Below are positions 5,980-38,472 of a stretch of 64,000 bases of DNA, one piece after another; the first letter of the stretch is position 1, and each line of letters begins with the position of its first letter. The position numbers and the translations under genes were made by a program. Source of the stretch: Candidatus Poribacteria bacterium. GTDB lineage: Bacteria > Poribacteria > WGA-4E > PCPOR2b. The notes beneath the pieces are model-generated. The model did not search any database. It was not told where the DNA came from and saw nothing but the letters and a program-made list of their open reading frames with translations. The stretch covers positions 1,707,273 through 1,771,272 of the forward strand of contig OZ244950.1 of the NCBI GenBank assembly GCA_965222435.1, written 5' to 3'.

Positions 5980-6084
5980 CGAGGCAGTAATACCACACAA
6001 AAGGGGAACTTGGAATTCTTGACTTTGAGATAGTGGAATGATGTTGTCTAACAAGCCATTGGAAAGTGAAACAACGATGGAACA

Positions 6085-6963
6085 GTGTTTGATGAAGGGA
6101 GCGCGTTGATTGTGATTTTCTATAAATACGTTACCGCAGAACGAATTGATATTCTTCAAAATCGCCTAATCCGGTTCACGCAACCTGACGCGTTGAATGA
6201 TCCCTTTGAAGCTAAACCGCATTTCCACGCATTCGCAACAAAGGCGGGGCTTGCAAGTGCCTTTGCAGATATGATTAGGCAGGCTCCTACTGTTGTATGG
6301 GAAGACTTCCGGAGAGTAACACAAACCAACTTAGATCGACGAGCGTTCGCTGATAAACTTGAGGGAGATCCCGATTATGCTGATTGGCTATATAAGAATG
6401 TTGGTTTGCCGGACCCCCTTCCTAAGGAACGGAAAAAAGTGAGGAAATGGTTTAAGGTTGTAGGCATCCTATCCCTTTCCGAAACATGGGATAATCTGCT
6501 CATGTGGGCACACTATGCCGAAGAACACACCGGTTTTGTTCTTATGCTTGACGGTTCCCATGATTTCTTCAAAGGAGATAATTCTTTACTTGGGTTTGCA
6601 AAACCTGAACGTGTTGAATACAAATCGGAGCGTCCGAGTACAACAATTGAAGAGGTAACCGTGCCAGAGATCTTCCTGACTAAAGGTTTCGATTGGAAAT
6701 ATGAGAAAGAGTGGCGGTATTTGAAGTACCTCAACGGTGCGGACGAGCGACGCGAGGAACCCAATACTTATCCTGTGGAGCTCTTCAGGTTGCCCCTCAA
6801 GTGCATAAGGGGTGTAATCCTTGGGTGTCGCAGATCTAAAGAATTAGAAAATAACATCGTTGCCTTACGACGCGATGATCCGGAGTTTGGGCACTTGCAA
6901 ATCCTACAAGCACGTGCATCTACAAGGCGTTACCGGCTAGGGATAGAGGAAATAAAAACCTAA
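6085..6963 (+). CDS. DUF2971 family protein
   Basis: N-terminal FYKY...LNDPFE motif followed by LSLSETWDNLLMWAHYAEEHTGFVLMLD, characteristic of DUF2971. Confidence 0.5.
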   Translation: MFDEGSALIVIFYKYVTAERIDILQNRLIRFTQPDALNDPFEAKPHFHAFATKAGLASAFADMIRQAPTVVWEDFRRVTQTNLDRRAFADKLEGDPDYADWLYKNVGLPDPLPKERKKVRKWFKVVGILSLSETWDNLLMWAHYAEEHTGFVLMLDGSHDFFKGDNSLLGFAKPERVEYKSERPSTTIEEVTVPEIFLTKGFDWKYEKEWRYLKYLNGADERREEPNTYPVELFRLPLKCIRGVILGCRRSKELENNIVALRRDDPEFGHLQILQARASTRRYRLGIEEIKT

Positions 6964-7112
6964 CCTGCCCTTGCACCTCCCTGCTTTAATACTTTATCAC
7001 GATAGAAGGAGATCAAAACGATGATAGATTATATGGTTCCAATCCTTCGCATCGCTCAGTCTGAGGATGAAGATCCAATCTTTTTCAAGCATACCAGACA
7101 AGGAAAAAAAAG

Positions 7113-8246
7113 ATGTTAAAAATTATTGACAACGGCATCATTTCCCACCAGAAAGAGCGGGGAGCGTACATGCCCGTGATCACCCCCCTCACAGACGGTA
7201 GTTTCATCGCCTGTCAGCATGTCGGGCAGGGGCTAGGCACACCGGACAATCATATCGAGATACTTCGTTCAATGGATGGGGGCGCAACATGGGTCAATGA
7301 AGGGAGCATCCATCCCGGCGGCACGCCTATTGCTTTGAATCCCGATGAAATCGGGGCGGACGGATGGTCTTATCGGGGTCCAAAGATTAGCGAGGTTCCA
7401 GACGGTCGCTTGGTGATGAACGCTACCCGTTTCGAGAACGAGGGCGGCACGCTCTTTGACACGGAATCGGAAGCCTTGCAGCGTCCGGAGATTCTGCTGT
7501 TCTGGTCAGAAGATCAAGGCAAAACGTGGTCAGAACCGCAGGTCGTGCCGGTAGACCTACCGCCCGAAAAATACACATGGAACGGGGCTGGACCTCTCTT
7601 GCAACTCGTGCCGGATCGGTGGATGTACCCCCTCGAAACGTGGAAGCCCGAAGGCTATGAAGGTCCTCCCGATCAGAAGGCAGCGGCTGTATTCTCCGCA
7701 GATCAGGGAGAAACGTGGGGAGAGTTCACCGTCGTCGCAGATGACCTCACAGGCGCGTTGCTCTGGTGGGATCAGATGTGCGCCTTGTTACCGGATGGAC
7801 GCATCTATACCCTAATCTGGACGCACCAGTACGGAACCTCCGAGGACTTGACGAACCACTGGGTGATCTCTGAAGACGGTGGACGTACTTGGTCCGAACC
7901 CCGACCGACAAATCTGCGCGGTCAGGTCTGCACCCCCATCCCGCTGCCCGACGGTCGCGTGGCGGCAATCTACAATTTCCGACACGAACCCCAAGGCATC
8001 CATGTGGCACTGACCGAAGACCTTGAGAATTTCGACGTAGAGAACGAGGTCGTGGTCTTTGATGCAGGAAAAGAGGCAACCCTCGGCGAACCTGAGAACG
8101 AGAACTTCCTCGCTGAACACATGCAGATCGCTTTTGGCAAGCCCGGTGGGACAACCCTGCCGGACGGGGATGTGATGACCTATTTCTGGTGTACTGTGGC
8201 GGGAGTCACCCATACGCGCTGGGTGAAATTGCGATTGGAAGGCTAA
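7113..8246 (+). CDS. BNR/Asp-box repeat protein (sialidase-like glycosidase)
   Basis: Four Asp-box motifs S/D-x-D-x-G-x-T-W (MDGGATW, DQGKTWSEP, DQGETWGEF, DGGRTWSEP). Confidence 0.65.
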   Translation: MLKIIDNGIISHQKERGAYMPVITPLTDGSFIACQHVGQGLGTPDNHIEILRSMDGGATWVNEGSIHPGGTPIALNPDEIGADGWSYRGPKISEVPDGRLVMNATRFENEGGTLFDTESEALQRPEILLFWSEDQGKTWSEPQVVPVDLPPEKYTWNGAGPLLQLVPDRWMYPLETWKPEGYEGPPDQKAAAVFSADQGETWGEFTVVADDLTGALLWWDQMCALLPDGRIYTLIWTHQYGTSEDLTNHWVISEDGGRTWSEPRPTNLRGQVCTPIPLPDGRVAAIYNFRHEPQGIHVALTEDLENFDVENEVVVFDAGKEATLGEPENENFLAEHMQIAFGKPGGTTLPDGDVMTYFWCTVAGVTHTRWVKLRLEG

Positions 8247-8253
8247 TAAAAGG

Positions 8254-8309
8254 GAAACCGAGTTTTTTCCCCGGTCACGGGATCCTCTCGGACTTGAAAA
8301 CTCGGTTTC
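8254..8309. terminator. palindromic hairpin (gaaaccgagtttt...aaaactcggtttc) followed by T-rich run
   Basis: 13-bp inverted repeat with extended loop, 8 nt after the BNR gene stop, then tttctttctt; member of a recurrent hairpin family (see 12439, 33510). Confidence 0.4.
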
Positions 8310-8381
8310 TTTCTTCCGCTATCGGTTTTTGTTGTATGCTTTCTTAACACGAGCTAGCAATGATAGAAAGGAACAGTTCAG

Positions 8382-9143
8382 ATGGATTGGCAAAAGGATT
8401 CACAACAACTCAAAGATGCCTTTGACCGAGATGGATTTGTGGTCATTCCCGGTTTCTACACCCCGGAAGAGACAGCGGCGTTAAACGCTCATATTGATCG
8501 GTTCATTGCGGAGACGTTGCCCGGATTGCCGTCGGACGCAGCCTTTTACGAAGCCAAGGGGCAGACCGAAAGCATTATGCGGTTACAGGGCATGGCGTCT
8601 TACGACAGCCATTTCAAGGAACTTACCGAGAGCGATCGGTTTGCCAAGCTGGCGGAATTGCTGCTAGACGATGGGGTTATAAGTAAAAATATGGAGTGGT
8701 TCACGAAACCCGCCCGCAGCGGTGCAGAGACGCCACCCCATCAAGATGGGTTCTACTTCATGCTCGAACCAAACGAGGCACTGACGTTGTGGCTGGCATT
8801 GGATACGGTGAATGATGAGAACGGCTGTATCCACTATGCACGGGGTTCTCACCGCCGAGGCATGAGACCCCACCGACAGACAGCCGTGTTCGGGTTCTCC
8901 CTAGGAGTTACGGACTACGACGAAGCGGATTATCAAGAGGAAGCAGCCATCCATGCCGCGCCGGGCGATATGATCGTGCATCACTGCATGACGATTCATC
9001 GCGCAGGTTCCAACCCCACCACGAACCCGCGCCGGGCACTGGGGCTTGTCTATTATGCTCAACGTGCTAAGGCGGATGCAGAACGTCAGGCGGCGTACAA
9101 GAAAGAGCTAATGGAACTATGGGAAAAAGAGGGGAAACTTTAG
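8382..9143 (+). CDS. phytanoyl-CoA dioxygenase family protein
   Basis: 253 aa; PhyH-like pattern (FVVIPGFYTPEE, HQDGFYF, IHYARGSHR, HHCMTIHRAGSN). Confidence 0.7.
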   Translation: MDWQKDSQQLKDAFDRDGFVVIPGFYTPEETAALNAHIDRFIAETLPGLPSDAAFYEAKGQTESIMRLQGMASYDSHFKELTESDRFAKLAELLLDDGVISKNMEWFTKPARSGAETPPHQDGFYFMLEPNEALTLWLALDTVNDENGCIHYARGSHRRGMRPHRQTAVFGFSLGVTDYDEADYQEEAAIHAAPGDMIVHHCMTIHRAGSNPTTNPRRALGLVYYAQRAKADAERQAAYKKELMELWEKEGKL

Positions 9144-28391: not shown

Positions 28392-28415
28392 TCACGTTTC
28401 ACGTTTTATATTTCA
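28392..28415 (-). repeat. 7-nt-periodic ACGTGAA heptamers at carB stop
   Basis: Minus-strand TGA at 28401 (stop) and 28394, with a third CGTGAA unit 14 nt upstream inside the coding region. Confidence 0.35.
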
Positions 28416-31400
28416 CGTAATAATCTTGTAACGGGGTCACAGTAATCTCGCCACGGCGGAGCGCATCAATGCCATTGATTGCCGCTGATGCACCGGCGAT
28501 CGTAGAAAATAGGGTAATTCCGTAATCAATTGCCATCTGCCGAATTAATTCCTCATTTGGACGATGCGCATACCCGGTAGGTGTATTGATAATCAGATCG
28601 ACGGCATTGTTTTTGACGTAATCGTGGATGGTCGGGCGCCCTTTGCCGATACTATGAACCAGCGTCACCTCCATGCCGTTACGACGAAGGACCTTCGCTG
28701 TACCGTGCGTGGCGATCAGTTGAAATCCCAGATCAACTAGCTTTTTGGCGATAAAGATAATTGCGCGCTTATCCTTATTTTTTACGCTGATGAACGCATG
28801 ACCACCGAGAGGTAGTCCATAACCGACCGCCTGTTGCGCCTTGGCAAAAGCGATACTCAGGTCAGCATCAATCCCCATCACCTCGCCTGTTGATTTCATC
28901 TCAGGACCGAGTTGGGAATTTGCCCCCGGGAAGCGATTGAACGGAAACACCGGTGCTTTCACCGAAAAATAATCCGGCTCAATCTGCCTCGTAAATCCAA
29001 GTTCTTCAAGAGTCCTTCCCGTCATGATGCGGGCGGCGAGTTTTGCCAACGGCACTCCTATCGTCTTGCTCACAAACGGCACGGTGCGCGACGCACGCGG
29101 GTTGACCTCCAACACATAAATCTCATCGTTCTTTATCGCATACTGTATATTCATCAACCCGCGCACGTTGAGTGCCTTTGCCAGCGCGTCAGTATACTCC
29201 TTGAGCGTATCGATCTGCTCCTCAACAAGCGTGTAAGGCGGCAGCACACAATCGCTATCTCCAGAGTGGATACCTGCCTCCTCGATATGTTCCATGATCC
29301 CGCCGACGACGGTGAGGTGCCCGTCGGAAATCGCATCAACATCAACTTCGATGGCATCCTCCAAATACTTGTCGATTAACACGGGATGTTCGGGTGAGGC
29401 TGCGACCGCCGAATCCATATATGCTTCCAGATCATCTTGGTCATAGACAATCCGCATTGCCCGTCCCCCCAAAACGTACGAAGGACGCACCATAACCGGG
29501 TATCCAAGTGCCGCGGCAATCGGCGTGGCTTCCTTGAGCGAAGTTGCCGTGCCATTTGGGGGCTGCATTAAGCCAAGTCCGTCGAGCAACTCTGTAAACT
29601 GCTTCCGATCCTCCGATCTTGCAATGTCCTCTGGGCTTGTCCCTATAATTGGAACACCCGCCTTCTGGAGTCCAAGCGCGAGATTCAAGGGTGTCTGTCC
29701 ACCAAGCTGCACGATAACCCCGTTCGGTTTCTCCCGATCAACGATGTTCAACACATTTTCGTGCGTGAGCGGTTCAAAGTAGAGCCGATCTGAGGTATCG
29801 TAATCCGTGCTCACAGTTTCGGGATTGCTATTGACCATAATGGTCTCATAGTTATCCTCTTTAAGTGCGAGTGCCGCGTGAACACAACAGTAATCGAACT
29901 CAATGCCTTGACCTATCCGATTCGGACCGCTACCTAAAATCAAGATTTTCCTCTTCTCGCTAGGTCTGACCTCATCCTCCATGCCGTAGGTAGAATAGTA
30001 GTAAGGCGTCTCCGCTTCAAACTCCGCAGCACAGGTATCCACCGTCTTAAACGTGGCTTCAATTCCGTGCTCCTTCCGCAGCGCTCGGATACTTGCCTCA
30101 GAAGCGTTCCAAAGTTCCCCTATCTGAGGGTCTGAGAAGCCATACTGCTTTGCTTTACGGAGCAGGGAAACAGACGAATCAGGCAGCTGAGAAATATCCA
30201 GCGTGTCTAGTTTACTTTCGTTTCCGACTTTCCGAATTTCTTCCTCAAAATCGACAATCTCCTTTATATTATACAGGAAAAATGGATCGATGTGTGTATA
30301 TCCGTGAATCTGATCTATATTCATTCCGCTTTGGAAAGCTTGTTTTATATAAAGGACGCGCTCCATATTGGGAATGGTCAACTTCTGTGGAAGTTCCGAG
30401 ACAGGCAATTTCTGGATGGAACGGCTGTCGAGTCCCATCCAACCGTTTTCTAAGGATCTCAACCCCTTCTGCAAGGATTCCTTGAACGTCCGTCCGATTG
30501 CCATCGCCTCACCCACGGACTTCATCATCGTCGTTAGCGTCTCATCGGTGCCGGCGAATTTCTCAAATGCCCAACGCGGAATCTTTGTCACAACGTAATC
30601 AATGGTCGGTTCAAACGACGCAGGGGTTTTGCGCGTAATATCATTGGGAAGCTCGTCGAGGGTGTATCCGACAGCTAGCTTCGCTGCGATCTTTGCTATC
30701 GGAAATCCTGTCGCTTTCGAGGCGAGTGCAGAACTCCGAGAGACCCGCGGGTTCATTTCAATCACAACCTGTTTCCCTGTATCGGGATCGACCGCAAACT
30801 GGATATTTGAACCGCCGGTGTCCACACCAATTTCACGAATAATCTTAATCGCTGCATCCCGCATCTGTTGATACTCTTTGTCCGTCAAGGTCTGGGCGGG
30901 CGCAACCGTAATACTGTCGCCGGTGTGAACCCCCATCGGATCGAAATTCTCAATGGAACAGATAATCACGACGTTATCTGTTCTATCCCGCATTACCTCA
31001 AGCTCAAATTCTTTCCAGCCAATCACCGACTCCTCAATTAGCACCTCGTTGACCGGACTCAACCCCAATCCGTACTCGACCATCTCCCGGAATTCTTCGA
31101 TATTGTAAGCAATGCCTCCGCCGGTGCCACCGAGTGTGAACGCGGGCCGAATAATCGCTGGATAACCGATCTCCTCAACGATAGCAATCGCATCGTCATA
31201 CGAATGGGCAATGCCGCTTTTTGGCACCGCCAAGCCAATCCGCTCCATCGCCTTCTTGAATAGGCCTCGATCCTCCGCTTTTTGGATAGCGGGAAGTTTC
31301 GCGCCAATCAACTCAACCTCGTACTTATCCAACACACCCGATTCAGCAAGCTCAACAGAGACATTCAACCCTGTCTGTCCACCCAAAGTTGGGAGTAGGG

Positions 31401-31653
31401 CTTGGGGACGTTCCTGAGCAATAATTCGTTCGGCGATATCCGCATTAATCGGTTCAACATAGGTGCGGTCTGCAAGCTCCGTGTCCGTCATAATTGTTGC
31501 CGGATTGCTGTTGACAAGGACAACCTCATACCCCTCCTCCTTCAAGGATTTACACGCCTGAGTGCCCGAATAGTCAAACTCGCAGGCTTGACCGATAATA
31601 ATCGGGCCGGAGCCGATAATTAGGATCTTTTTGATGTCAGTTCGCTTTGGCAT
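28399..31653 (-). CDS. carB: carbamoyl-phosphate synthase large subunit
   Basis: [36 protein letters not shown]-terminus, duplicated ATP-grasp halves, C-terminal MGS-like domain; start set to internal ATG 31653. Confidence 0.9.
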
Positions 31654-31770
31654 GGTAAATAACCTTATCGTATTGTTATCGGGACAGAATTTAACGCAAA
31701 GGCGCGAAGGTACAAGGATTTTTCTCTTCTTTTCCCTGCACCTCATTACGGCATTGCGTTGTTTTCTTTC

Positions 31771-31787
31771 TCACGTTTCACGCATCA
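31771..31787 (-). repeat. three tandem heptamers giving TGA in all three frames at carA stop
   Basis: Minus-strand acgtgat-gcgtgaa-acgtgag; TGA at 31787, 31780, 31773. Confidence 0.4.
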
Positions 31788-32963
31788 CGTCTTACTCATC
31801 AGATCCGTGAACCTCTTAAAAAGATACCTTGCGTCATGGGGACCGGGAGACGCCTCCGGATGATACTGCACAGCAAAGATCGGATATTCTCTGTGCTCCA
31901 TCCCTTCAAGGGTTTGATCGTTCAAGTTGATATGCGTCACCTTTACATTGTTTGGCAGTGAGTCAATGTCCACGCAGAAACCGTGATTTTGTGAGGTAAT
32001 TTCGACCTGATCTGTGTCGAATCGTTTAACAGGCTGATTTGCGCCGCGATGCCCGAATTTGAGTTTGAAAGTCTTTCCGCCAAATGCAAGTCCCAACAGT
32101 TGATGCCCCAAACAGATACCAAAGATTGGCTTCACCCCAATCAACTGCTGAATCGTCTTGATGCCGTATTCAATCGGTTCCGGATCGCCGGGACCGTTGG
32201 ATAAGAAGATACCATCTGGGTTCGCGGCAAGAATATCTTCTGCAGAAGTGTGTGCTGGCACCACTTGAACCTGACAACCGTGTTGGGTAAGCTGGCGTAA
32301 GATATTATATTTAACCCCGAAATCCACTGCAATAACTCGGAACTGGGGAGTTGACGGTGCCTCAATCCCTGTTGTGTCAAAGTCGATCGTGAGTTGGGAA
32401 TCTTTAGCATCGGCGGTGGGGCTCAACTCAGAGAGAGCGTCTGATTCGGGGTCGCGTGTCTCCCATAAGTACGGATTCGGGCATGTCACGTACTGAACCA
32501 TATCTACACCAACCAACCCGTGCCACGCCTGCGCTTTGGCAACCAAGCTTTGGGGGTCAAGATCTTCCGTCGAAAGTATTCCATTCATGACGCCATGTAC
32601 TCTGAGCCGTTTGGTCAATGCGCGTGTGTCAATACCGTGGATGCCGATCATCCCATTTTCTTCGAGGTAGCGGCTGAGATTGGACTGTGAACGCCAGTTG
32701 CTCTCGTATGCACTATATTCACGCACAACAAATCCTTCGGCTTGCGGTCGAATTGATTCGACATCGATTTCGTTGCAGCCGTAGTTTCCGATTAGCGGGT
32801 AGGTCATCGTGACGATCTGCCCCTTGTAGGATGGATCGGTGAGAATCTCTTGGTAGCCGGTCATACTGGTGTTGAAAACCACCTCACCGGAGGTTTCCCC
32901 GGTCGCGCCGAAATGTTCGCCTTCAAAGATTGTTCCATCCGCTAATGCGAGAATTGCTTTCAT
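31785..32963 (-). CDS. carA: carbamoyl-phosphate synthase small subunit
   Basis: MKAILALADGTIFEGEHFGA N-terminus and glutamine amidotransferase domain (GICLGHQLL, catalytic Cys). Confidence 0.9.
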   Translation of the reverse strand: MKAILALADGTIFEGEHFGATGETSGEVVFNTSMTGYQEILTDPSYKGQIVTMTYPLIGNYGCNEIDVESIRPQAEGFVVREYSAYESNWRSQSNLSRYLEENGMIGIHGIDTRALTKRLRVHGVMNGILSTEDLDPQSLVAKAQAWHGLVGVDMVQYVTCPNPYLWETRDPESDALSELSPTADAKDSQLTIDFDTTGIEAPSTPQFRVIAVDFGVKYNILRQLTQHGCQVQVVPAHTSAEDILAANPDGIFLSNGPGDPEPIEYGIKTIQQLIGVKPIFGICLGHQLLGLAFGGKTFKLKFGHRGANQPVKRFDTDQVEITSQNHGFCVDIDSLPNNVKVTHINLNDQTLEGMEHREYPIFAVQYHPEASPGPHDARYLFKRFTDLMSKT

Positions 32964-33133
32964 TGGGCTAGTTGTCCTTATTCTCAACAGGTTTGAATAT
33001 TATTCGTCTCTCGCTCTGCCTGAACTCGAAGTCAAACGTGATGGGTAAATGGTCAGGGGTTCATTGGTGCATTGGCTCACTAGTACATTAATGAACTTAT
33101 GAACTCAATATCCTCACCAACTCGCACCAAAGA

Positions 33134-33424
33134 TTATACAGGTTCCCACAGATCTTCTCTGAGGCTTCGTAGACGTAACGTGCGAATACGCACCTGCTTG
33201 ACCTGCCGAGGAACAAGAAAAAGCGTCATCTTTCCGTCATGAGTTGATGGAGAGGAAGCAGCTAGCTCTTCTCGTTTACGCTTCGCCGCTGTAAAGTCTT
33301 CTGCTACGCCTACAATCTGGGTATCGTTCAAAATGATAACTACCTTGCCCTCATACCGCTTGGGACGCTTATAGATTTTTTGGAGCCATTGTTGTGTTTG
33401 CCGTTTTTTCATGTGTCGCATCAC
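33134..33424 (-). CDS. hypothetical small protein
   Basis: 96-aa basic ORF downstream of the methyltransferase gene. Confidence 0.3.
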   Translation of the reverse strand: MMRHMKKRQTQQWLQKIYKRPKRYEGKVVIILNDTQIVGVAEDFTAAKRKREELAASSPSTHDGKMTLFLVPRQVKQVRIRTLRLRSLREDLWEPV

Positions 33425-33490
33425 CCTCTCAAGGAATAAACGGTTTTGCTATATGGGATATATCTCTCGCCCTTAATCAAGTTGGCTAAT

Positions 33491-33541
33491 GTTAAGAAAT
33501 CGTGCAACAGAAACCGAGTTTTCAAGAAAAAACTCGGTTTC
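33491..33541 (-). terminator. palindromic hairpin plus conserved flanking motif
   Basis: gaaaccgagtttt-caag-aaaaaactcggtttc at 33510..33541 preceded by gttaagaaatcgtgcaacag, the reverse complement of the motif upstream of the PhyH gene at 9402. Confidence 0.4.
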
Positions 33542-33564
33542 TTTTATAGATAGCAACTAGGTCA

Positions 33565-35187
33565 TCATGCCTCTATTTCAAGTTGCTGGCTTTGGGGGGC
33601 TGCCCGTTCTGCCCTGCGGAATGTGACATCAATAGGCGTCTGTGGATATTCAATACCGTGTCCCGCAAGCAGTTCCTCAATCGTCCGAATCTGAATCTTT
33701 GGATATGTCGTGTGAGTGACGTGAAGCCATTGAAAACGCCCTGCTGTCGCTGCTTCCTTGAGCATCGGTTGGGTCGGCGGATTCAGCGTGATAAAGACAC
33801 CAATCACAGCGTCTTGGGTTTCAACAACCGATTTCAGTTCCCGTATGTCCCTAACAGAAACCTTCCCACTTTTAACCTGAACGACAATCTTCCGGGTCAG
33901 CGTCTTTTTCGGCTTATCTGGATCAACATCCTGATAATAGATCATCCCGTCCACACCCTCGTCTGCCCCCTTCTTTTTCCCCTGATACGGTCTCGCCCGA
34001 ATCAGGCTTAACGCCCACCACTGGAATTGATACCGATCTTGAACCGCTAAAGCCTTCGCGCTCTCTGCATCTTTCGGCTCACCGATAACTTCGTATTTCA
34101 CACCGTCACCAAAGGCATCGGCAAGGCGGTACTTCAATAAAGCGATGGCAAGATGTGTGATGTCAACCCCAATCCACCGGCGGTTAAACTGTTGAGCAAC
34201 AGCGACAGCCGTCCCACAACCACAAAACGCGTCCAATACAACATCGCCTTCGTTACTACTCGCTTTGATAATCCGCTCAAGCAATGCTTCAGGCTTTTGG
34301 GTGGGATATCTGAGACGCTCTTTCGCTTGAGAGTTTATAGGTGGTATATCAACCCAAACATCCTGCATAGGAACACCGGGCATCTCATCTAAAAATTGTT
34401 TCAATCTAGGTGTACCATAGCGAGTATAGTATAGTTTGCCGGATTCATGGTATTCCTGCATAGTGCTATACGGACAGCGCCAAATCTTAGTTATTCCATT
34501 CCACTCATACTCATATCCTCCTCCACTCAAAGAGCCTGCCGTTAAATCCCTGTCTAAAAATCTTCTGCCATTTTCATCAGTATGTTTATAATACTTCTCA
34601 ATGTACCCATCAGAATATGGTAGATACTGTTCATTATGAGTGAAAGAATTACTTATTGAATAGTAAAGTATAATGTCATGTACGTTCCCATATACGGCAG
34701 AATCATTATGGGCTGCGGTTCGTCTCCAAGTAATCTCATTCCTGAAATTTTTAACGCCAAAAATCTGATCCAAGATAATCTTCAGATAATGCGACGCCGT
34801 CGGATCACAATGGAGATAAAAGCTCCCTGTCGGTTTCAGGACACGGTGGAGTTCCACCAATCGCAACCCCATCATCACGAGGTACGCCATCAGATTGTTT
34901 TCACCGAGGATTCCGCGAAAACTCTTGATTGTCTCAACCAGAAGGGGTGGCGCGGTCTCGACCAGCTCATAATATGCCTGCTCAGTGGTTTCGACCCAAT
35001 GCCATGTATCCTCAAAGGCTTGGATCTGTGCCTGCGACGATGAGCCATCCCTTTCGCTGAAAATCACGTTGTACGCTTGATTCGAGTTAAATGGCGGATC
35101 GATGTAAATGAGATCGACGCTTTCGTCGGGGATGTGGGCCCGCAAAATGTCTAGATTGTCACCATAGTAGAGTTGATTCATATCCAT
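33565..35187 (-). CDS. DNA methyltransferase (N6-adenine/N4-cytosine type) fused to a C-terminal Mrr-like PD-(D/E)xK nuclease domain
   Basis: Motif IV DPPF (LIYIDPPFNS) before motif I (VVLDAFCGCGTAVAVA), i.e. beta-class order; C-terminal GADEGVDGMIYY...VVQVKSGK...GVFITL resembles the Mrr catalytic domain. Confidence 0.6.
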   Translation of the reverse strand: MDMNQLYYGDNLDILRAHIPDESVDLIYIDPPFNSNQAYNVIFSERDGSSSQAQIQAFEDTWHWVETTEQAYYELVETAPPLLVETIKSFRGILGENNLMAYLVMMGLRLVELHRVLKPTGSFYLHCDPTASHYLKIILDQIFGVKNFRNEITWRRTAAHNDSAVYGNVHDIILYYSISNSFTHNEQYLPYSDGYIEKYYKHTDENGRRFLDRDLTAGSLSGGGYEYEWNGITKIWRCPYSTMQEYHESGKLYYTRYGTPRLKQFLDEMPGVPMQDVWVDIPPINSQAKERLRYPTQKPEALLERIIKASSNEGDVVLDAFCGCGTAVAVAQQFNRRWIGVDITHLAIALLKYRLADAFGDGVKYEVIGEPKDAESAKALAVQDRYQFQWWALSLIRARPYQGKKKGADEGVDGMIYYQDVDPDKPKKTLTRKIVVQVKSGKVSVRDIRELKSVVETQDAVIGVFITLNPPTQPMLKEAATAGRFQWLHVTHTTYPKIQIRTIEELLAGHGIEYPQTPIDVTFRRAERAAPQSQQLEIEA

Positions 35188-35190
35188 CGG

Positions 35191-35751
35191 CTATCTCTTT
35201 ATCTGTTGCGATTCGGACTTCAGAACCGAGTACAACTTCATATCGTGAAACTGCCCTCTAACGTAGACATACTTCCGCAAGACACCCTCAAGACTCATGC
35301 CAGCTTTCTCCATCACGCGGGCGGAGGCACAGTTCTCAACCATGCAGGTTCCCTCAATTCGATTAAGCCGCCAACGTTCAAAGCCGAATTGGATGATTGC
35401 TTGAGCGGTCTCAGTCGCATATCCTCTCCCCCAATACTTCCGACCAATATTGAAAGCGATCTCCGCCCTTTTGTGTTCAAAGTTCACATTGTGCAAGAAG
35501 CAGTTTCCGATGACCTTACCGTTCTCGGTCAGGACAACTCCCCAACACGCGAAATCATCGGTTGTTACCCATGAAATAAAGTCTCTGCTGTCCTCTATCG
35601 ATTGGTGTGCCCGCCAAAACAGGTACATTGTCACCTGTGGGTCTGAAACCCACTCAAATATATCTTCTGCATCCGCCATCTCTAATGGTCTTAAAAGCAG
35701 CTTTTCAGTCTCTATCACAGGCAAATCGCTGAAGCGTTCGTCCTTAGCCAT
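35191..35751 (-). CDS. GNAT family N-acetyltransferase
   Basis: 186 aa, RimJ/RimL-like pattern (LLLRPLEMADAEDIFEWVSDPQV, acetyl-CoA-binding-like GRKYWGRGYATE). Confidence 0.7.
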   Translation of the reverse strand: MAKDERFSDLPVIETEKLLLRPLEMADAEDIFEWVSDPQVTMYLFWRAHQSIEDSRDFISWVTTDDFACWGVVLTENGKVIGNCFLHNVNFEHKRAEIAFNIGRKYWGRGYATETAQAIIQFGFERWRLNRIEGTCMVENCASARVMEKAGMSLEGVLRKYVYVRGQFHDMKLYSVLKSESQQIKR

Positions 35752-36029
35752 CCCCTACCCCATTTGCAAAATTAGTAGGTCGTGATTTTATTTTTTTATA
35801 GGACTTACACAGTTGAACACTGAGGTTTTGTAGTTCGATGCTTCAGTGCCAACGCGGGGCAAGTCCGAGAGGATTTCCGAAGAATCGAGAGCAGGCCCGT
35901 GACCGGGGAGGCCCCGCCTACGATGGGTATGGATTCTGACCATACCCCGAAACGCCCGATGAATCGGGCAACTACAAGCCGATGAATCGGGGAACTACGA
36001 TATGAGGTGCGTAAGTCCTGTTTTATTTA

Positions 36030-36046
36030 TCACGTTTCACGCTTCA
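36030..36046 (-). repeat. three tandem heptamers giving TGA in all three frames at pyrC stop
   Basis: Minus-strand acgtgaa-gcgtgaa-acgtgat; TGA at 36046, 36039, 36032. Confidence 0.4.
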
Positions 36047-37318
36047 CGTTCGGGTAACAACACCGTCCCGGATAGTCATCACAGACCATCCCTTCAATTC
36101 CCAACCGTCAAAGGGGGTATTACGGCTTTTGGAGGGAGACTGCGTCACATCCACCGTCGCAACCTTCTCCGGATCTATCAACGTCACGTCAGCAGCTGCA
36201 CCGATTGAGAGTGTTCCGCGATCAATTTGCAGAATCTTAGCAGGGACACAAGTCATTTTCGCTATCGCCTCCGATAACGTGAACTGACCCGTGTGGATAA
36301 GTCGATCAAATACAAGCGGTACGCAGGTCTCTGATCCGATGATGCCCGGCGGGGCGTCAAGCAGACCCTGCGCCTTTTCAAACGGGGCATGTGGCGCGTG
36401 GTCTGTCGCAATCGCATCGAGCGTACCGTCTTTGATCCCTTCGATGACGGCATCAACGTCAGCCTGTGTACGCAAGGGCGGATGCATCTTGGCATTCGTA
36501 CCCTGTTCTTCGACCGCTTTATCGGTGAGCGTAAAGTGGTGTGGCATCGCTTCGGCGGTCACATTGACACCCCTGCGTTTGCCCCAACGGACAAGATCAA
36601 CGGATCCCGCGGTACTAACATGGAGGACATGGAGGTGCCCGCCGGTCAGTTCAGCGAGCATGATGTCGCGGGCAACGATAATATCTTCCGCAGCGTTGGG
36701 GCTTCCTATCAGGTTCAACCGCCGCGATGTTTCGCCGAGGTTCATGACCGCTCCCACGTCAAGGTTATGTTCTTGGCAATGAACCATAACGGGAAAAGCG
36801 TGTTTCGCACTCAACGCCAGCACATCGCGCATCAACCCCGCATCCATGACCGTTTTGCCATCGTCTGATAGTCCGACAGCACCGGCTGCTATCAACGCTG
36901 GCACATCCGTCAATACTTCGCCATCAAGATTTTTCGTGATGCTGCCGATTGGAAACACATTTGTTGCACCATTTTTCCGCGCTTGTGACTGTATCAATTC
37001 GATAACATCGGGTGAATCTGCCACCGGATTGGTATTCGCCATGCACACAACAGAAGTAAATCCGCCAGCCGCTGCCGCCCGGGTGCCTGATGCGATTGTC
37101 TCCTTGTGCTCAAATCCGGGTTCGCGGAGATGAACGTGCATATCAATCAAGCCCGGCGTAACGATTAGCCCTGTCGCATCAACGGTTTGAGACGCCTCAA
37201 TTTCAATTCGGTCATCAATTCGATCGATTTTCCCATCACGAATCAGGAGATCTCCGGTGGTGTCAGTCTCGTTGGCAGGGTCAATAATCCGACCGTTTCG
37301 GATGAGTATCCGACTCAT
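36044..37318 (-). CDS. pyrC: dihydroorotase
   Basis: DMHVHLREPG metal-binding motif, amidohydrolase-superfamily fold, 424 aa; adjacent to pyrR. Confidence 0.85.
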   Translation of the reverse strand: MSRILIRNGRIIDPANETDTTGDLLIRDGKIDRIDDRIEIEASQTVDATGLIVTPGLIDMHVHLREPGFEHKETIASGTRAAAAGGFTSVVCMANTNPVADSPDVIELIQSQARKNGATNVFPIGSITKNLDGEVLTDVPALIAAGAVGLSDDGKTVMDAGLMRDVLALSAKHAFPVMVHCQEHNLDVGAVMNLGETSRRLNLIGSPNAAEDIIVARDIMLAELTGGHLHVLHVSTAGSVDLVRWGKRRGVNVTAEAMPHHFTLTDKAVEEQGTNAKMHPPLRTQADVDAVIEGIKDGTLDAIATDHAPHAPFEKAQGLLDAPPGIIGSETCVPLVFDRLIHTGQFTLSEAIAKMTCVPAKILQIDRGTLSIGAAADVTLIDPEKVATVDVTQSPSKSRNTPFDGWELKGWSVMTIRDGVVTRT

Positions 37319-37869
37319 GGATTGTCCTCCTCGTAAATCACCGCCCGGTCAACCCCATCCTCCTCGACCAACTGAACGCGAACAATCTCCTTACGCGAAG
37401 TCGGAATATTCTTTCCGATGTAATCCGCCGCAATCGGGAGTTCACGATGACCTCGATCAATGAGAACCGCCAATTGAATTGCTGCAGGTCGTCCAAAATC
37501 CATGACTGCGTCCATGGCAGCACGAACAGTGCGTCCGGTGTAAAGCACCTCATCAACCAAGATGACACGCTTTCCTGTTGGATCAAACGGGATCTCTGTG
37601 CGATTCACTTTAATCGTCTCATCATACAGGTTCACGTCATCTCGATAGAGCCGCACATCAACGACGCCGACGGGAACTTTAATCCCCTCAGTCCGCTCCA
37701 GATTTTCAGCGATTCGACGTGCCAAGTGATCCCCCCGGCTTTTAACCCCAATGATTGCCAGATCCGCAATTTCTTGGTGGCTTCGCTCCAAAATCTCATG
37801 TGATATTCGGACCACCGCCCGCCGAATGTCCTCCGCTGTCATCACTTGTGTCTTTTCACGCATTTGCAT
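37315..37869 (-). CDS. pyrR: bifunctional pyrimidine operon regulator / uracil phosphoribosyltransferase PyrR
   Basis: Strong similarity to PyrR pattern (VILVDEVLYTGRTVRAAMDA, ADYIGKNIPTS); start among several in-frame Met, approximate. Confidence 0.8.
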   Translation of the reverse strand: MQMREKTQVMTAEDIRRAVVRISHEILERSHQEIADLAIIGVKSRGDHLARRIAENLERTEGIKVPVGVVDVRLYRDDVNLYDETIKVNRTEIPFDPTGKRVILVDEVLYTGRTVRAAMDAVMDFGRPAAIQLAVLIDRGHRELPIAADYIGKNIPTSRKEIVRVQLVEEDGVDRAVIYEEDNP

Positions 37870-37893
37870 AATCTTTCCTCGCACCAACACTCC

Positions 37894-38472
37894 TCAAGTT
37901 AAATCTTCCCGCCTCTGATACAAAAGGTCCATAATCTCCTGTAACAGGGGAGAATCGTCAAAACTTCGATAATTCCAAGGATTTGTCCAAAATTCGTCCA
38001 GCGATCGATAGCCAATCTTTTCGTATTCCAAGACCTGAATCATCAGTTCAAGTTTATCGGCAGCCCGTACCAATTTCCCTTCAACAGATGTACCTTCCTC
38101 AAACTCAGCCCAAAGTTGGATATATTTTTGTTGGAGTGGTCCAAAGCGTTCAAACATTGATTCAACAGCAGCCTGTTCCCCCGCTGCCTTGACTTCTTCG
38201 GGGATATATTTGAGGGTTGGAAAGGGCAGATCTCCAATCCGTGCTTCAGCGACCTCGTGCAACAATGCGAGGCGCATCACTTTTTCCACGTCCAGCGGAA
38301 CGCCCTGCTCCGTCAACACATCCGCCAGAATCATCGACAAAAGTGACACTCGATAGCAATGATCTGCGATACTCTCAGCATCTTTGATACCGCGAAAACG
38401 CCAGCCGGTGCGCGGCAGGTTCTTGAGAACGCCAATTTCTTCAATGAAATCTAATACAGCTTGTGCATTCAT
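37894..38472 (-). CDS. HD-domain phosphohydrolase (YfbR-like)
   Basis: HD motif region (DHCYRVSLL...HEVAEARIGD); first gene of the HD-pyrR-pyrC cluster. Confidence 0.6.
   Translation of the reverse strand: MNAQAVLDFIEEIGVLKNLPRTGWRFRGIKDAESIADHCYRVSLLSMILADVLTEQGVPLDVEKVMRLALLHEVAEARIGDLPFPTLKYIPEEVKAAGEQAAVESMFERFGPLQQKYIQLWAEFEEGTSVEGKLVRAADKLELMIQVLEYEKIGYRSLDEFWTNPWNYRSFDDSPLLQEIMDLLYQRREDLT

What the first reader, a model, noticed from the sequence alone, without database searches (positions are those of the whole stretch)
33565..35187. DNA methyltransferase fused to a C-terminal Mrr-like nuclease domain, with no separate restriction gene nearby
Motif IV (DPPF) precedes motif I (FCGCGT), the beta-class order of N6-adenine/N4-cytosine DNA methyltransferases. 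The last ~170 residues carry a D...D...QxK arrangement (GADEGVDG...VVQVKSGK...GVFITL) resembling the Mrr catalytic domain. No separate restriction endonuclease gene is adjacent (neighbours are a GNAT acetyltransferase and a small hypothetical protein). This could be a single-chain modification-restriction enzyme or a methylation-sensing nuclease.
Basis: partly seen in the sequence, partly recalled or inferred. Interest (0 to 1): 0.45.

Follow-up and report, generated by a model that had tools for sequence, protein, structure and literature searches.

The report
Methyltransferase–Mrr nuclease fusion with swappable specificity
This gene from a sponge-symbiont bacterium joins a DNA-methylating enzyme to a DNA-cutting domain in one protein, most likely a self-contained restriction-modification enzyme from a large, uncharacterised family that changes its DNA target by swapping one internal cassette.

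Summary
ORF 33565-35187 (-) encodes a 540-aa protein with a beta-class DNA methyltransferase (Pfam N6_N4_Mtase, E=2e-43; motif IV DPPF before motif I FCGCGT) and a C-terminal Mrr-type PD-(D/E)XK domain (Mrr_cat, E=3e-9). A confident AlphaFold model matches AF1548, AspBHI, LlaBIII and MspJI in that domain. The window comes from Candidatus Poribacteria.

The gene belongs to a very large family (>8000 database clusters) found in Poribacteria, Chloroflexota and other phyla, on plasmids, and in the lysogeny modules of temperate phages. No partner gene recurs across 81 loci. The residues shown to be essential in the Mrr-family nuclease LlaGI (two Asp, one Lys) are kept in 143 of 144 diverse representatives. 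Only the motif I Glu is replaced, by Gln.

One genome carries up to six paralogs. They are 80-100% identical in both enzymatic modules but only 9-33% identical in a sharply bounded target-recognition cassette. The closest nuclease-less relatives are Type III mod genes with an adjacent res gene.

The best reading is a motor-less single-chain restriction-modification enzyme (confidence about 0.55). Cleavage itself is untested. No published description of this fusion was found.

The parts
33565..35187 (-). Whole ORF, 540 aa: beta-class DNA MTase fused to a C-terminal Mrr-type nuclease domain
   Evidence: ORF list; Pfam N6_N4_Mtase plus Mrr_cat; AF2 model with pLDDT 83.7 and pTM 0.81
34726..35187 (-). 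MTase N-terminal catalytic sub-domain (res 1-154), including motif IV and ending at NFRNEITW
   Evidence: 80-96% identical between same-genome paralogs; left mosaic breakpoint at gene nt ~462-483
35089..35100 (-). MTase motif IV, D30-P-P-F33 (catalytic; the Asp form is typical of N6-adenine enzymes)
   Evidence: Invariant in 81/81 family members; translation verified
34348..34725 (-). Target-recognition domain (TRD) cassette, res ~155-280, the hypervariable and exchangeable segment
   Evidence: 9-33% identity between paralogs whose flanks are 80-100% identical; sharp boundaries; no DNA similarity between the conserved flanks; at least 17 cassette types
34102..34347 (-). MTase C-terminal sub-domain (res 281-362): PTQKP motif, AdoMet-binding motif I and the connecting helix DITHLAIALLKYRL
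   Evidence: Pfam N6_N4_Mtase extends to res 345; PDB beta-class MTases align here; helix 345-362 in the model
34210..34227 (-). MTase motif I, F321-C-G-C-G-T326 (AdoMet binding)
   Evidence: F321, G323 and T326 invariant in 81/81, G325 in 79/81; verified
33658..34101 (-). [quoted passage not shown]
34012..34035 (-). Nuclease motif I helix, R385-Y-Q-F-Q-W-W-A392. F388-Q389 stands where Mrr has F-E, and this motif is the family signature
   Evidence: Invariant in 81 loci; Q121/E23 at position 389 among 144 representatives; the phage branch has FEFERW
33946..33969 (-). Nuclease motif II, G407-A-D409-E-G-V-D413-G414 (the two Asp are essential in LlaGI)
   Evidence: 81/81 invariant; 143/144 representatives; LlaGI mutagenesis in PMC2790908
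33871..33879 (-). Nuclease motif III, Q437-V-K439
   Evidence: 81/81 invariant; K in 143/144, position 437 is Q or S
33838..33849 (-). D447-I-R-E450 on the helix after motif III, the candidate relocated catalytic carboxylate(s)
   Evidence: Position 450 is acidic in 129/144 representatives; D447 aligns with Mrr E231; Cfr10I/NgoMIV/Mrr precedent as described in PMC2790908
33568..33657 (-). C-terminal tail (res 511-540), low-confidence and probably disordered
   Evidence: pLDDT falls to 35-69 over the last three 10-residue blocks; lower conservation
35191..35751 (-). Upstream GNAT acetyltransferase. Its stop codon is 3 nt from the MTase start, so it is probably co-transcribed. It is a syntenic neighbour, not a functional partner
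   Evidence: Pfam Acetyltransf_3 E=7e-34; TAG-CCG-ATG junction; present at only 8 syntenic loci
33134..33424 (-). Downstream 96-aa ORF, a truncated copy of a ~215-aa gene. Not part of the system
   Evidence: Orthologs of 212-228 aa in L001, L004, L008, L011 and L013 carry an extra C-terminal LIDSGAD segment

Best explanation
The gene most likely encodes a self-contained, single-polypeptide restriction-modification enzyme. Its N-terminal two thirds are a beta-class, probably N6-adenine, DNA methyltransferase of the Type III Mod lineage. The target-recognition domain (TRD, res ~155-280) is inserted between the catalytic sub-domain (motif IV DPPF) and the AdoMet-binding sub-domain (motif I FxGxG). 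A long helix connects this to a C-terminal Mrr-type PD-(D/E)XK nuclease domain that has no DNA-recognition module of its own.

Inferred mechanism: the single TRD reads a short DNA motif. On host DNA the MTase methylates that motif. On unmethylated incoming DNA, the tethered non-specific nuclease cuts nearby. It has D409/D413 for metal binding, K439, Q437, and a helix-borne D447/E450 as the relocated carboxylate. Cutting probably follows pairing of two nuclease domains, as in other single-site Mrr-type and FokI-like enzymes.

Because one TRD sets both activities, replacing the TRD cassette by recombination changes restriction and protection together without killing the host. That explains the many paralogs with near-identical enzymatic modules and unrelated TRDs, and the gene's ability to spread as a single gene into operons, plasmids and prophage lysogeny modules.

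Shown here: the domain architecture, fold, residue conservation, lack of a partner gene, cassette mosaicism and distribution. Inferred: that the nuclease is active, that it targets unmethylated sites, and the cleavage geometry.

For: (2) The catalytic set is retained under strong constraint. D409, D413 and K439 are invariant in 81 loci spanning 51-100% identity and present in 143/144 representatives clustered at 50% identity. Their LlaGI equivalents D74, D78 and K94 are each essential for cleavage, whereas the motif I Glu and motif III Gln mutants keep partial activity (PMC2790908). Position 450 on the following helix is acidic in 90% of representatives.

(3) There is no partner. ORF clustering across 81 loci found no shared neighbour other than local synteny, and the neighbours are housekeeping genes.

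(4) Specificity diversifies on a constant scaffold. Same-genome paralogs are 80-96% identical in the MTase core and 88-100% in the Mrr domain, but 9-33% in the TRD. Boundaries are sharp at the protein and DNA levels. There are at least 17 cassette types, and some are shared across phyla while scaffolds diverge. A lineage-conserved regulatory orphan MTase would be expected to keep its TRD.

(5) R-M ancestry. The closest MTase relatives lacking the nuclease domain are followed directly by a ResIII-helicase plus endonuclease gene, i.e. Type III mod-res.

(6) Mobile-element locations typical of defence cargo. Solitary copies occur on plasmids and beside the repressor or integrase of temperate phages Amgine, Werner and MPV1.

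(7) Three of 86 copies are inactivated by disruption of the whole ORF (split near res 61-83), with no selective loss of one domain.
Against: No cleavage or methylation has been measured for any family member that I could find, so the function rests on sequence inference. In this branch the motif I Glu of Mrr-family nucleases is an invariant Gln, and the equivalent LlaGI E38A mutant is more than 10-fold slower. The domain scores equally well or better against Pfam NA-iREase1, a family its curators label 'inactive'. Many copies are wedged inside housekeeping operons (pyrC/carA, proB/proA) and are syntenic across species, which also fits a resident housekeeping methylase. Database names are almost all 'DNA methyltransferase'. 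PADLOC reports only MTase models. All characterised single-chain R-M enzymes that I know of or found in the literature searched here have the opposite layout (N-terminal nuclease, gamma-class MTase), so there is no direct precedent.
Confidence: 0.55

Rival explanations
1. Solitary (orphan) DNA methyltransferase. The Mrr-like domain would be a catalytically dead or very weak module reused for DNA binding, oligomerisation or regulation. The protein would only methylate, giving epigenetic marking or protection from other nucleases, and in phages and plasmids would serve as anti-restriction self-protection.
For: Motif I Glu is replaced by Gln in this branch. The match to the 'inactive REase' Pfam family NA-iREase1 is equal or better. 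Genes are embedded in housekeeping operons with conserved synteny. Annotations read 'DNA methyltransferase'. Phage- and plasmid-borne orphan MTases are common (review PMC12707154).
Against: Two aspartates and a lysine with no obvious DNA-binding rationale are kept in 143/144 divergent representatives, whereas inactivated nuclease domains normally lose them. The motif I Glu is dispensable for residual activity in LlaGI. TRD turnover among paralogs and orthologs is not expected of a lineage-conserved regulatory methylase. The phage copies lie in lysogeny modules and not in early or replication modules.
Confidence: 0.27
2. Methylation-dependent (Type IV-like) nuclease fused to an MTase. The Mrr domain would sense and cut methylated DNA, as E. 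coli Mrr does, with the MTase creating or priming the signal.
For: The domain is homologous to the catalytic domain of the Type IV enzymes Mrr, MspJI and AspBHI.
Against: Only the catalytic module is shared. In EcoKMrr and MspJI, modified-base recognition resides in separate N-terminal winged-helix or SRA domains (PMC12707154), and these are absent here: Pfam finds only the MTase and Mrr_cat, and the model shows no extra domain. Cutting one's own methylation product would be self-destructive.
Confidence: 0.04
3. The nuclease acts in trans or in a different process. It could work as a site-directed nickase, or as an initiator of the recombination that exchanges TRD cassettes among paralogs. It could also act as a toxin-like addiction or abortive-infection effector that is held in check by the MTase.
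For: A catalytic-looking nuclease domain. Unusually homogeneous scaffolds among paralogs, which suggests frequent gene conversion (98% DNA identity over nt 1-462 in the L009 tandem pair). Single-gene mobility.
Against: No specific evidence. Gene conversion needs no dedicated nuclease. Nothing distinguishes these ideas from ordinary restriction with the data available.
Confidence: 0.1

Closest known systems
Type IIG / IIL single-chain restriction-modification enzymes (MmeI, BpuSI, Eco57I families)
   Same: One polypeptide carries the nuclease, the MTase and a single TRD, and no separate R or S gene is needed. Specificity can change by altering one TRD. The nuclease is a PD-(D/E)XK domain with no specificity of its own.
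   Different: Those enzymes have an N-terminal PD-ExK nuclease, then a gamma-class MTase, then a C-terminal TRD (PMC4752239; PMC3185434 abstract). Here the order is reversed: a beta-class MTase with an internal TRD, then a C-terminal Mrr-type (D-x-G-x-D ... QxK) nuclease. There is no detectable homology beyond the shared folds.
Type III R-M systems (EcoP15I Mod/Res; H. pylori Mod 6k0w)
   Same: The MTase is closest in sequence and structure to Type III Mod subunits, with the same beta-class layout and central TRD. TRD exchange between mod alleles is a known feature (Furuta/Kobayashi 'domain movement' papers). The nearest nuclease-less relatives sit beside a res gene.
   Different: There is no Res subunit and no helicase or ATPase motor anywhere in 81 loci. 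The nuclease is fused directly to Mod and belongs to the Mrr family, unlike the Res C-terminal endonuclease.
Type ISP enzymes LlaGI / LlaBIII
   Different: Type ISP enzymes are ~1500 aa with an N-terminal nuclease, an SF2 translocase, a gamma-class MTase and a C-terminal TRD. The protein here is 540 aa with no motor, and its motif I has Gln instead of Glu.
E. coli Mrr and MspJI/AspBHI (Type IV, modification-dependent)
   Same: The catalytic domain is homologous. GDGGIDG, VQAKR and GVFITT of Mrr align with GADEGVDG, VQVKS and GVFITL, and there are structural hits to AspBHI and MspJI.
   Different: Those proteins have an N-terminal methyl-DNA reader (wH or SRA) and no MTase. This protein has an MTase and no reader.
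Mycobacteriophage Panchino gp28 (prophage-encoded single-subunit restriction system)
   Same: It is a single-gene R-M carried in a temperate phage's lysogeny region and protects the lysogen. Family members Amgine gp37 and Dori gp42 occupy a comparable niche.
   Different: Panchino gp28 combines Type I-like R, M and S domains, so it belongs to a different protein family. No defence phenotype has been reported for the family studied here.

Membership tests
Beta-class N6-adenine/N4-cytosine DNA methyltransferases (Pfam N6_N4_Mtase, PF01555) | Profile match above the curated threshold | tested here: met
   E=2.1e-43, 149 bits against a gathering score of 26.7, res 24-345
Beta-class N6-adenine/N4-cytosine DNA methyltransferases (Pfam N6_N4_Mtase, PF01555) | Circular-permutation order: catalytic motif IV (D/S-P-P-F/Y) N-terminal, TRD in the middle, AdoMet motif I (FxGxG) C-terminal | tested here: met
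   DPPF at 30-33, variable TRD ~155-280, FCGCGT at 321-326
Beta-class N6-adenine/N4-cytosine DNA methyltransferases (Pfam N6_N4_Mtase, PF01555) | Fold of solved beta-class MTases | tested here: met
Beta-class N6-adenine/N4-cytosine DNA methyltransferases (Pfam N6_N4_Mtase, PF01555) | AdoMet-dependent methylation of a specific DNA motif, and identity of the modified base (m6A or m4C) | not testable with these tools
   The Asp in DPPF and the best matches to adenine MTases favour m6A. This is inference only.
Mrr-family PD-(D/E)XK nucleases (Pfam Mrr_cat, PF04471) | Profile match above the curated threshold | tested here: met
   37.6 bits against a gathering score of 21, E=2.8e-9; 22/22 diverse family members match
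Mrr-family PD-(D/E)XK nucleases (Pfam Mrr_cat, PF04471) | Motif II D-x-G-x-D, the family-specific pair of aspartates (both essential in LlaGI) | tested here: met
   D409-E-G-V-D413: 81/81 loci and 143/144 representatives
Mrr-family PD-(D/E)XK nucleases (Pfam Mrr_cat, PF04471) | Motif III Q-x-K | tested here: met
   Q437-V-K439 in 81/81 loci. Across the wider family position 437 is Q or S, and K is present in 143/144.
Mrr-family PD-(D/E)XK nucleases (Pfam Mrr_cat, PF04471) | Motif I F-E on the first helix | tested here: not met
   F388-Q389. Gln is present in 121/144 representatives and Glu only in a minority, including the phage branch. The placement is by motif pattern, because hhalign did not extend over this helix.
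Mrr-family PD-(D/E)XK nucleases (Pfam Mrr_cat, PF04471) | [quoted passage not shown] | tested here: met
Mrr-family PD-(D/E)XK nucleases (Pfam Mrr_cat, PF04471) | Mg2+-dependent DNA cleavage | not testable with these tools
   Needs biochemistry
Type IV modification-dependent restriction enzymes (EcoKMrr, MspJI) | A dedicated modified-DNA reader domain (winged helix or SRA) N-terminal to the nuclease | tested here: not met
   Pfam finds only the MTase N-terminal to Mrr_cat; the model has no additional domain
Type IIG/IIL single-chain R-M (MmeI-like) | Nuclease, MTase and a single TRD in one polypeptide, with no separate R or S gene | tested here: met
   Domain content; no conserved neighbour in 81 loci
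Type IIG/IIL single-chain R-M (MmeI-like) | N-terminal PD-ExK nuclease, gamma-class MTase, C-terminal TRD; homology to MmeI/BpuSI | tested here: not met
   The order is reversed and the MTase is beta-class. No MmeI or BpuSI hit appears in PDB sequence or fold searches.
Type III R-M (Mod + Res) | Mod-like beta-class MTase | tested here: met
Type III R-M (Mod + Res) | Adjacent res gene encoding an SF2 helicase-endonuclease | tested here: not met
   Absent from the window and from all 81 related loci. It is present only next to nuclease-less relatives.
NACHT-associated inactive REase 1 (Pfam NA-iREase1, PF22722) | Profile match above threshold | tested here: met
   34.4 bits against a gathering score of 27; 22/22 members, best E=7.6e-14
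NACHT-associated inactive REase 1 (Pfam NA-iREase1, PF22722) | Association with a NACHT NTPase, and loss of catalytic residues (as the name implies) | tested here: not met
   There is no NACHT domain, and the catalytic D, D and K are retained. I could not find the family's defining paper, so the basis of the 'inactive' label was not checked.
Lineage-conserved orphan MTases (Dam/CcrM type) | No cognate restriction gene | tested here: met
Lineage-conserved orphan MTases (Dam/CcrM type) | Conserved specificity (TRD) across the lineage | tested here: not met
   Syntenic orthologs at the same GNAT/carA locus have TRDs only 25-33% identical, while their flanks are 73-97% identical

The most novel reading that the evidence does not exclude
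This family is a previously unrecognised class of motor-less restriction-modification enzymes derived from Type III Mod subunits. In it, the Res helicase-nuclease has been replaced by a directly fused Mrr-type nuclease. The enzymes persist as multi-copy chromosomal gene families, with at least six per Poribacteria genome. They re-programme their targets by recombinational exchange of a discrete TRD cassette between paralogs, and temperate phages and plasmids also use them as single-gene defence cargo.
Probability: 0.45. Interest if true: 0.6.

Novelty: new variant of a known kind. Interest (0 to 1): 0.48.

Why it matters
If the nuclease is active, this would add a compact (~540 aa) single-chain restriction-modification architecture that mirrors the known Type IIG/IIL layout. 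It would also link Type III Mod subunits to motor-less enzymes, much as MmeI relates to Type I systems. The family is abundant: more than 8000 sequence clusters across several phyla, plasmids and temperate phages. It is currently annotated only as 'DNA methyltransferase', so defence-system inventories, including those for sponge symbionts, would be under-counting it.

The natural library of at least 17 TRD cassettes on a near-constant scaffold, with defined recombination boundaries, would be an attractive platform for engineering cutters and methylases with new specificities. It would also help link methylation motifs to genes in long-read metagenomes. If the nuclease proves inactive, the family would instead be a clear case of a catalytic-looking nuclease domain reused by solitary methylases.

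Tried and rejected
(1) PDB sequence searches with the C-terminal domain alone, as a single sequence and as a 22-sequence profile, gave only chance-level hits. Fold comparison was needed.

(2) The first AlphaFold run used a 47-sequence alignment at 71-91% identity to the query. It gave pLDDT 45.7 and was discarded. A 97-sequence alignment that added members at 52-60% identity gave pLDDT 83.7.

(3) Haloferax HVO_A0006, a 'methyltransferase-related PD-(D/E)XK protein', is a fragment of a canonical N-terminal-nuclease Type IIG enzyme and is unrelated.

(4) Panchino gp28 is a Type I-like R+M+S fusion from a different family.

(5) I looked for the paper defining NA-iREase1 in two eLife papers and one NAR paper from the Aravind group and did not find it. 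The basis of the 'inactive' label therefore remains unchecked.

(6) The literature searches used the terms Mrr_cat, PF04471/PF01555, Type IIG plus Mrr-like plus beta-class, and Poribacteria R-M. I also read into the 2014 Type II review, the 2025 EcoSal review and the 230-genome methylome survey. None of these describes a beta-class MTase with a C-terminal Mrr domain. REBASE could not be queried.

(7) An exact-sequence contig look-up for the window protein returned nothing.

(8) I had suspected co-variation between motif I (E/Q) and motif III (Q/S). The wider sample did not bear this out: Q-Q-S is the commonest combination.

(9) No second copy of the gene exists in the window.

(10) Promoter and terminator scans around the gene were at chance level.
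Full report
OBSERVATION. The window has one uninterrupted 540-codon ORF at 33565..35187 on the minus strand. DPPF lies at residues 30-33, FCGCGT at 321-326, GADEGVDG at 407-414, QVK at 437-439 and GVFITL at 463-468. Pfam places N6_N4_Mtase on residues 24-345 (E=2.1e-43) and Mrr_cat on 385-481 (E=2.8e-9, 37.6 bits against a gathering score of 21). A sister family, NA-iREase1, matches 404-507 at E=2.3e-8. The neighbours are a GNAT acetyltransferase and a 96-aa ORF, and beyond them pyrC/pyrR and carA/carB. The GNAT stop and the MTase start are 3 nt apart.

ORIGIN AND FAMILY SIZE. The protein is 100% identical to a database entry from a 6.96-Mb contig. More than 8000 database clusters match it, which is the cap of the search, and the best 120 all carry the same three Pfam domains at 70-100% identity. 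A scan of one genome per species found 454 encoding stretches. The closest, at 64-91% identity, are almost all Candidatus Poribacteria, which are sponge symbionts. Members at 51-59% identity occur in Chloroflexota (Dehalococcoidia, Anaerolineae, Ktedonobacteria, Nitrolancea), Acidobacteriota, Leptospiraceae, a Desulfobacca MAG, a Clostridiales bacterium and an archaeon. Full-length relatives at 42-46% identity lie on plasmids of cultured Mesorhizobium japonicum MAFF 303099, Microbacterium amylolyticum and others. An exhaustive search with the C-terminal domain alone found 2437 representative clusters. In the best 150 the domain is nearly always C-terminal. Most of the short hits are fragments that start inside the MTase's last helix, so this version of the domain is essentially specific to MTase fusions. 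Source names are automatic: 'DNA methyltransferase', 'site-specific DNA-methyltransferase (adenine-specific)' and occasionally 'restriction endonuclease'.

The mutagenesis study of the Mrr-family nuclease of LlaGI gives a functional yardstick. Both motif II aspartates and the motif III lysine are essential. The motif I Glu and motif III Gln mutants keep partial activity. In enzymes whose motif III lacks the acidic residue, the missing carboxylate can be supplied from the helix after motif III, as in Cfr10I and NgoMIV and as proposed for Mrr E231 (PMC2790908).

Here D409, D413, Q437 and K439 are invariant in 81 loci. Among 144 representatives clustered at 50% identity, D409, D413 and K439 are each present in 143. 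Position 437 is S or Q, and position 450 on the following helix is acidic in 129. D447 aligns with Mrr E231. The one departure is motif I: F388-Q389 stands where Mrr has F-E, inside an invariant RYQFQWWA signature. Glu survives in a minority of members, including the actinophage branch (FEFERW). The site therefore looks complete apart from a Glu-to-Gln change at a position that is non-essential in LlaGI. The 'inactive' label of NA-iREase1 could not be traced to its source, and it does not fit the residue pattern seen here.

NO PARTNER GENE. I called ORFs in ±8 kb around 81 loci and clustered them. No family other than the MTase itself occurs in more than 12 loci, and those that recur reflect local synteny. 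By their sequences, the recurrent neighbours are housekeeping genes. They include GNAT and carA at the window's own locus in about ten Poribacteria. In Dehalococcoidia they are glutamate 5-kinase and gamma-glutamyl-phosphate reductase (proB/proA), with a 4-bp overlap. Others are uvrA, an ABC transporter, nuo subunits and a TPR-histidine kinase. PADLOC reports only MTase models. Plasmid and phage copies are likewise solitary.

CASSETTE EXCHANGE. This is the most informative new result. Single Poribacteria chromosomes carry several paralogs: six from OZ240244.1 among the 80 loci fetched, three from OY764061.1, and tandem pairs in L009 and L025. Same-genome paralogs are 80-96% identical in residues 1-160 and mostly 88-100% identical in the Mrr domain. 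In residues 161-265 they are only 9-48% identical, and mostly below 33%. Even syntenic orthologs at the window's locus have 25-33% identity there, against 73-97% in the flanks. The boundaries are sharp. In the L009 pair, residues 1-154 match at 153 of 154 positions. The segment between NFRNEIxW and KERLGYPTQKP is unrelated and of different length (two length classes, ~545 and ~494 aa). The remainder is nearly identical. At the DNA level the flanks are 86-98% identical, with breakpoints at gene nt ~462-483 and ~830-880, and there is no detectable similarity in between.

Among 197 parsed members there are at least 17 cassette types. The window's type recurs in a Leptospiraceae member with 66% TRD identity but only 57% scaffold identity, so cassettes and scaffolds have separate histories. 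This interval is where beta-class MTases carry their TRD. The behaviour parallels the 'domain movement' described for H. pylori Type I S and Type III mod genes (papers listed).

RELATIVES WITHOUT THE NUCLEASE, AND PHAGE COPIES. The closest MTases that lack the C-terminal domain are Spirosoma linguale Slin_6680 and a Tunicatimonas protein, 36-43% identical over residues 3-355. Each is followed directly by an ~880-aa protein with a ResIII helicase domain and a C-terminal TnsA-like endonuclease, which is a Type III mod-res pair. Twenty-eight phage records hold near-full-length copies. In Mycobacterium phage Amgine, Streptomyces phage Werner and Marinitoga phage MPV1 the gene lies beside the integrase and/or immunity repressor. 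That is the region where prophage defence genes such as Panchino gp28 are found, although gp28 itself belongs to a different, Type I-like family.

INTERPRETATION. The best-supported reading (confidence about 0.55) is a motor-less, single-polypeptide restriction-modification enzyme. A Type III Mod-like MTase uses its internal TRD to direct both methylation of host DNA and cleavage of unmethylated DNA by the tethered, non-specific Mrr-type nuclease. This accounts for five observations:
- the conserved catalytic residues;
- the absence of any partner gene;
- the free exchange of TRD cassettes, which is safe only when one TRD governs both activities;
- the multi-copy families;
- the single-gene spread into operons, plasmids and prophages.

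Cleavage, its dependence on methylation state and its geometry are all inferred.

The main rival (about 0.27) is a solitary methylase whose Mrr-like domain is non-catalytic. It is supported by the Glu-to-Gln change, the NA-iREase1 match and the housekeeping contexts. It is weakened by the near-absolute retention of two aspartates and a lysine, and by TRD turnover. A methylation-sensing (Type IV-like) role is unlikely (about 0.04), because the reader domains of Mrr and MspJI are absent. Other nuclease roles, such as a nickase, a recombination initiator or an addiction effector, cannot be excluded (about 0.1).

NOVELTY. I found no description of a beta-class MTase with a C-terminal Mrr nuclease in the reviews, the 230-genome methylome survey or the full-text searches. 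REBASE could not be consulted, and its curators may already list these proteins as putative enzymes. The concept of single-chain R-M is well known, but the architecture mirrors the characterised Type IIG/IIL/ISP enzymes. I therefore rate it a new variant of a known kind, of moderate interest. The cassette-swapping multi-copy family is the most noteworthy part.

Noticed in passing
window 33134..33424 (-): The 96-aa ORF downstream of the MTase is a truncated copy of a ~215-aa gene. Orthologs in L001, L004, L008, L011 and L013 (212-228 aa) continue into a C-terminal segment with a retropepsin-like LIDSGAD motif. The window copy, like those in L006 and L009, stops after '...DLWEPV', and only 146 nt remain before carA. 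The N-terminal part hits DUF5678 weakly (E=0.008).
   Followed up: partly
window ~28399..38472 (-); L032, L036, L053: The MTase fusion sits inside a run of same-strand pyrimidine genes: HD-domain protein, pyrR, pyrC, GNAT, MTase, orf96, carA, carB. In Dehalococcoidia a family member is wedged between the glutamate 5-kinase and gamma-glutamyl-phosphate reductase genes (proB/proA), with a 4-bp overlap. In L003 and L007 it overlaps carA by 4 bp. Insertion of a single gene into housekeeping operons in unrelated phyla is unexplained.
   Followed up: partly
L009 6338-7822 and 8001-9638; L025 7995-9632 and 9658-11157: These are tandem paralog pairs, one ~545 aa and one ~494-499 aa. Their N-terminal parts are 98% (L009) and 86% (L025) identical at the DNA level, their C-terminal parts 91% and 97%, and their TRD cassettes are unrelated and of different length. 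This suggests duplication followed by cassette replacement, or ongoing gene conversion of the flanks.
   Followed up: yes
L026 7800-9448; L027 1299-2951; L058 2551-4232: Three family copies are split into two ORFs near residue 61-83, so they are probably pseudogenes or frameshifts. Inactivation hits the whole gene and does not selectively remove the nuclease or MTase domain.
   Followed up: no
L084 3501-5132 (Mycobacterium phage Amgine gp37); L085 3477-5120 (Streptomyces phage Werner gp48); L086 2716-4272 (Marinitoga phage MPV1_55): Temperate phages carry full-length members of the family in their lysogeny modules, beside the integrase and/or CI-like or immunity repressor. These copies keep the canonical Mrr motif I Glu (FEFERW), paired with SVK at motif III, except MPV1, which has EFQ and QVK.
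   Followed up: partly
L087 5758-8403; L089 5766-8408: The Res-like partners of the nearest nuclease-less MTase relatives combine a ResIII helicase with a C-terminal TnsA-like endonuclease domain (Pfam Tn7_TnsA-like_N, above its gathering score). The helicase-plus-C-terminal-endonuclease layout is that of a Type III Res, with the TnsA-like family as the nuclease module.
   Followed up: no
L082 (Microbacterium amylolyticum plasmid) 4702-8725: On this plasmid the family member is flanked by a zeta-toxin gene and a Fic/VbhA toxin-antitoxin pair, so it lies in a cluster of addiction and defence-type modules.
   Followed up: no
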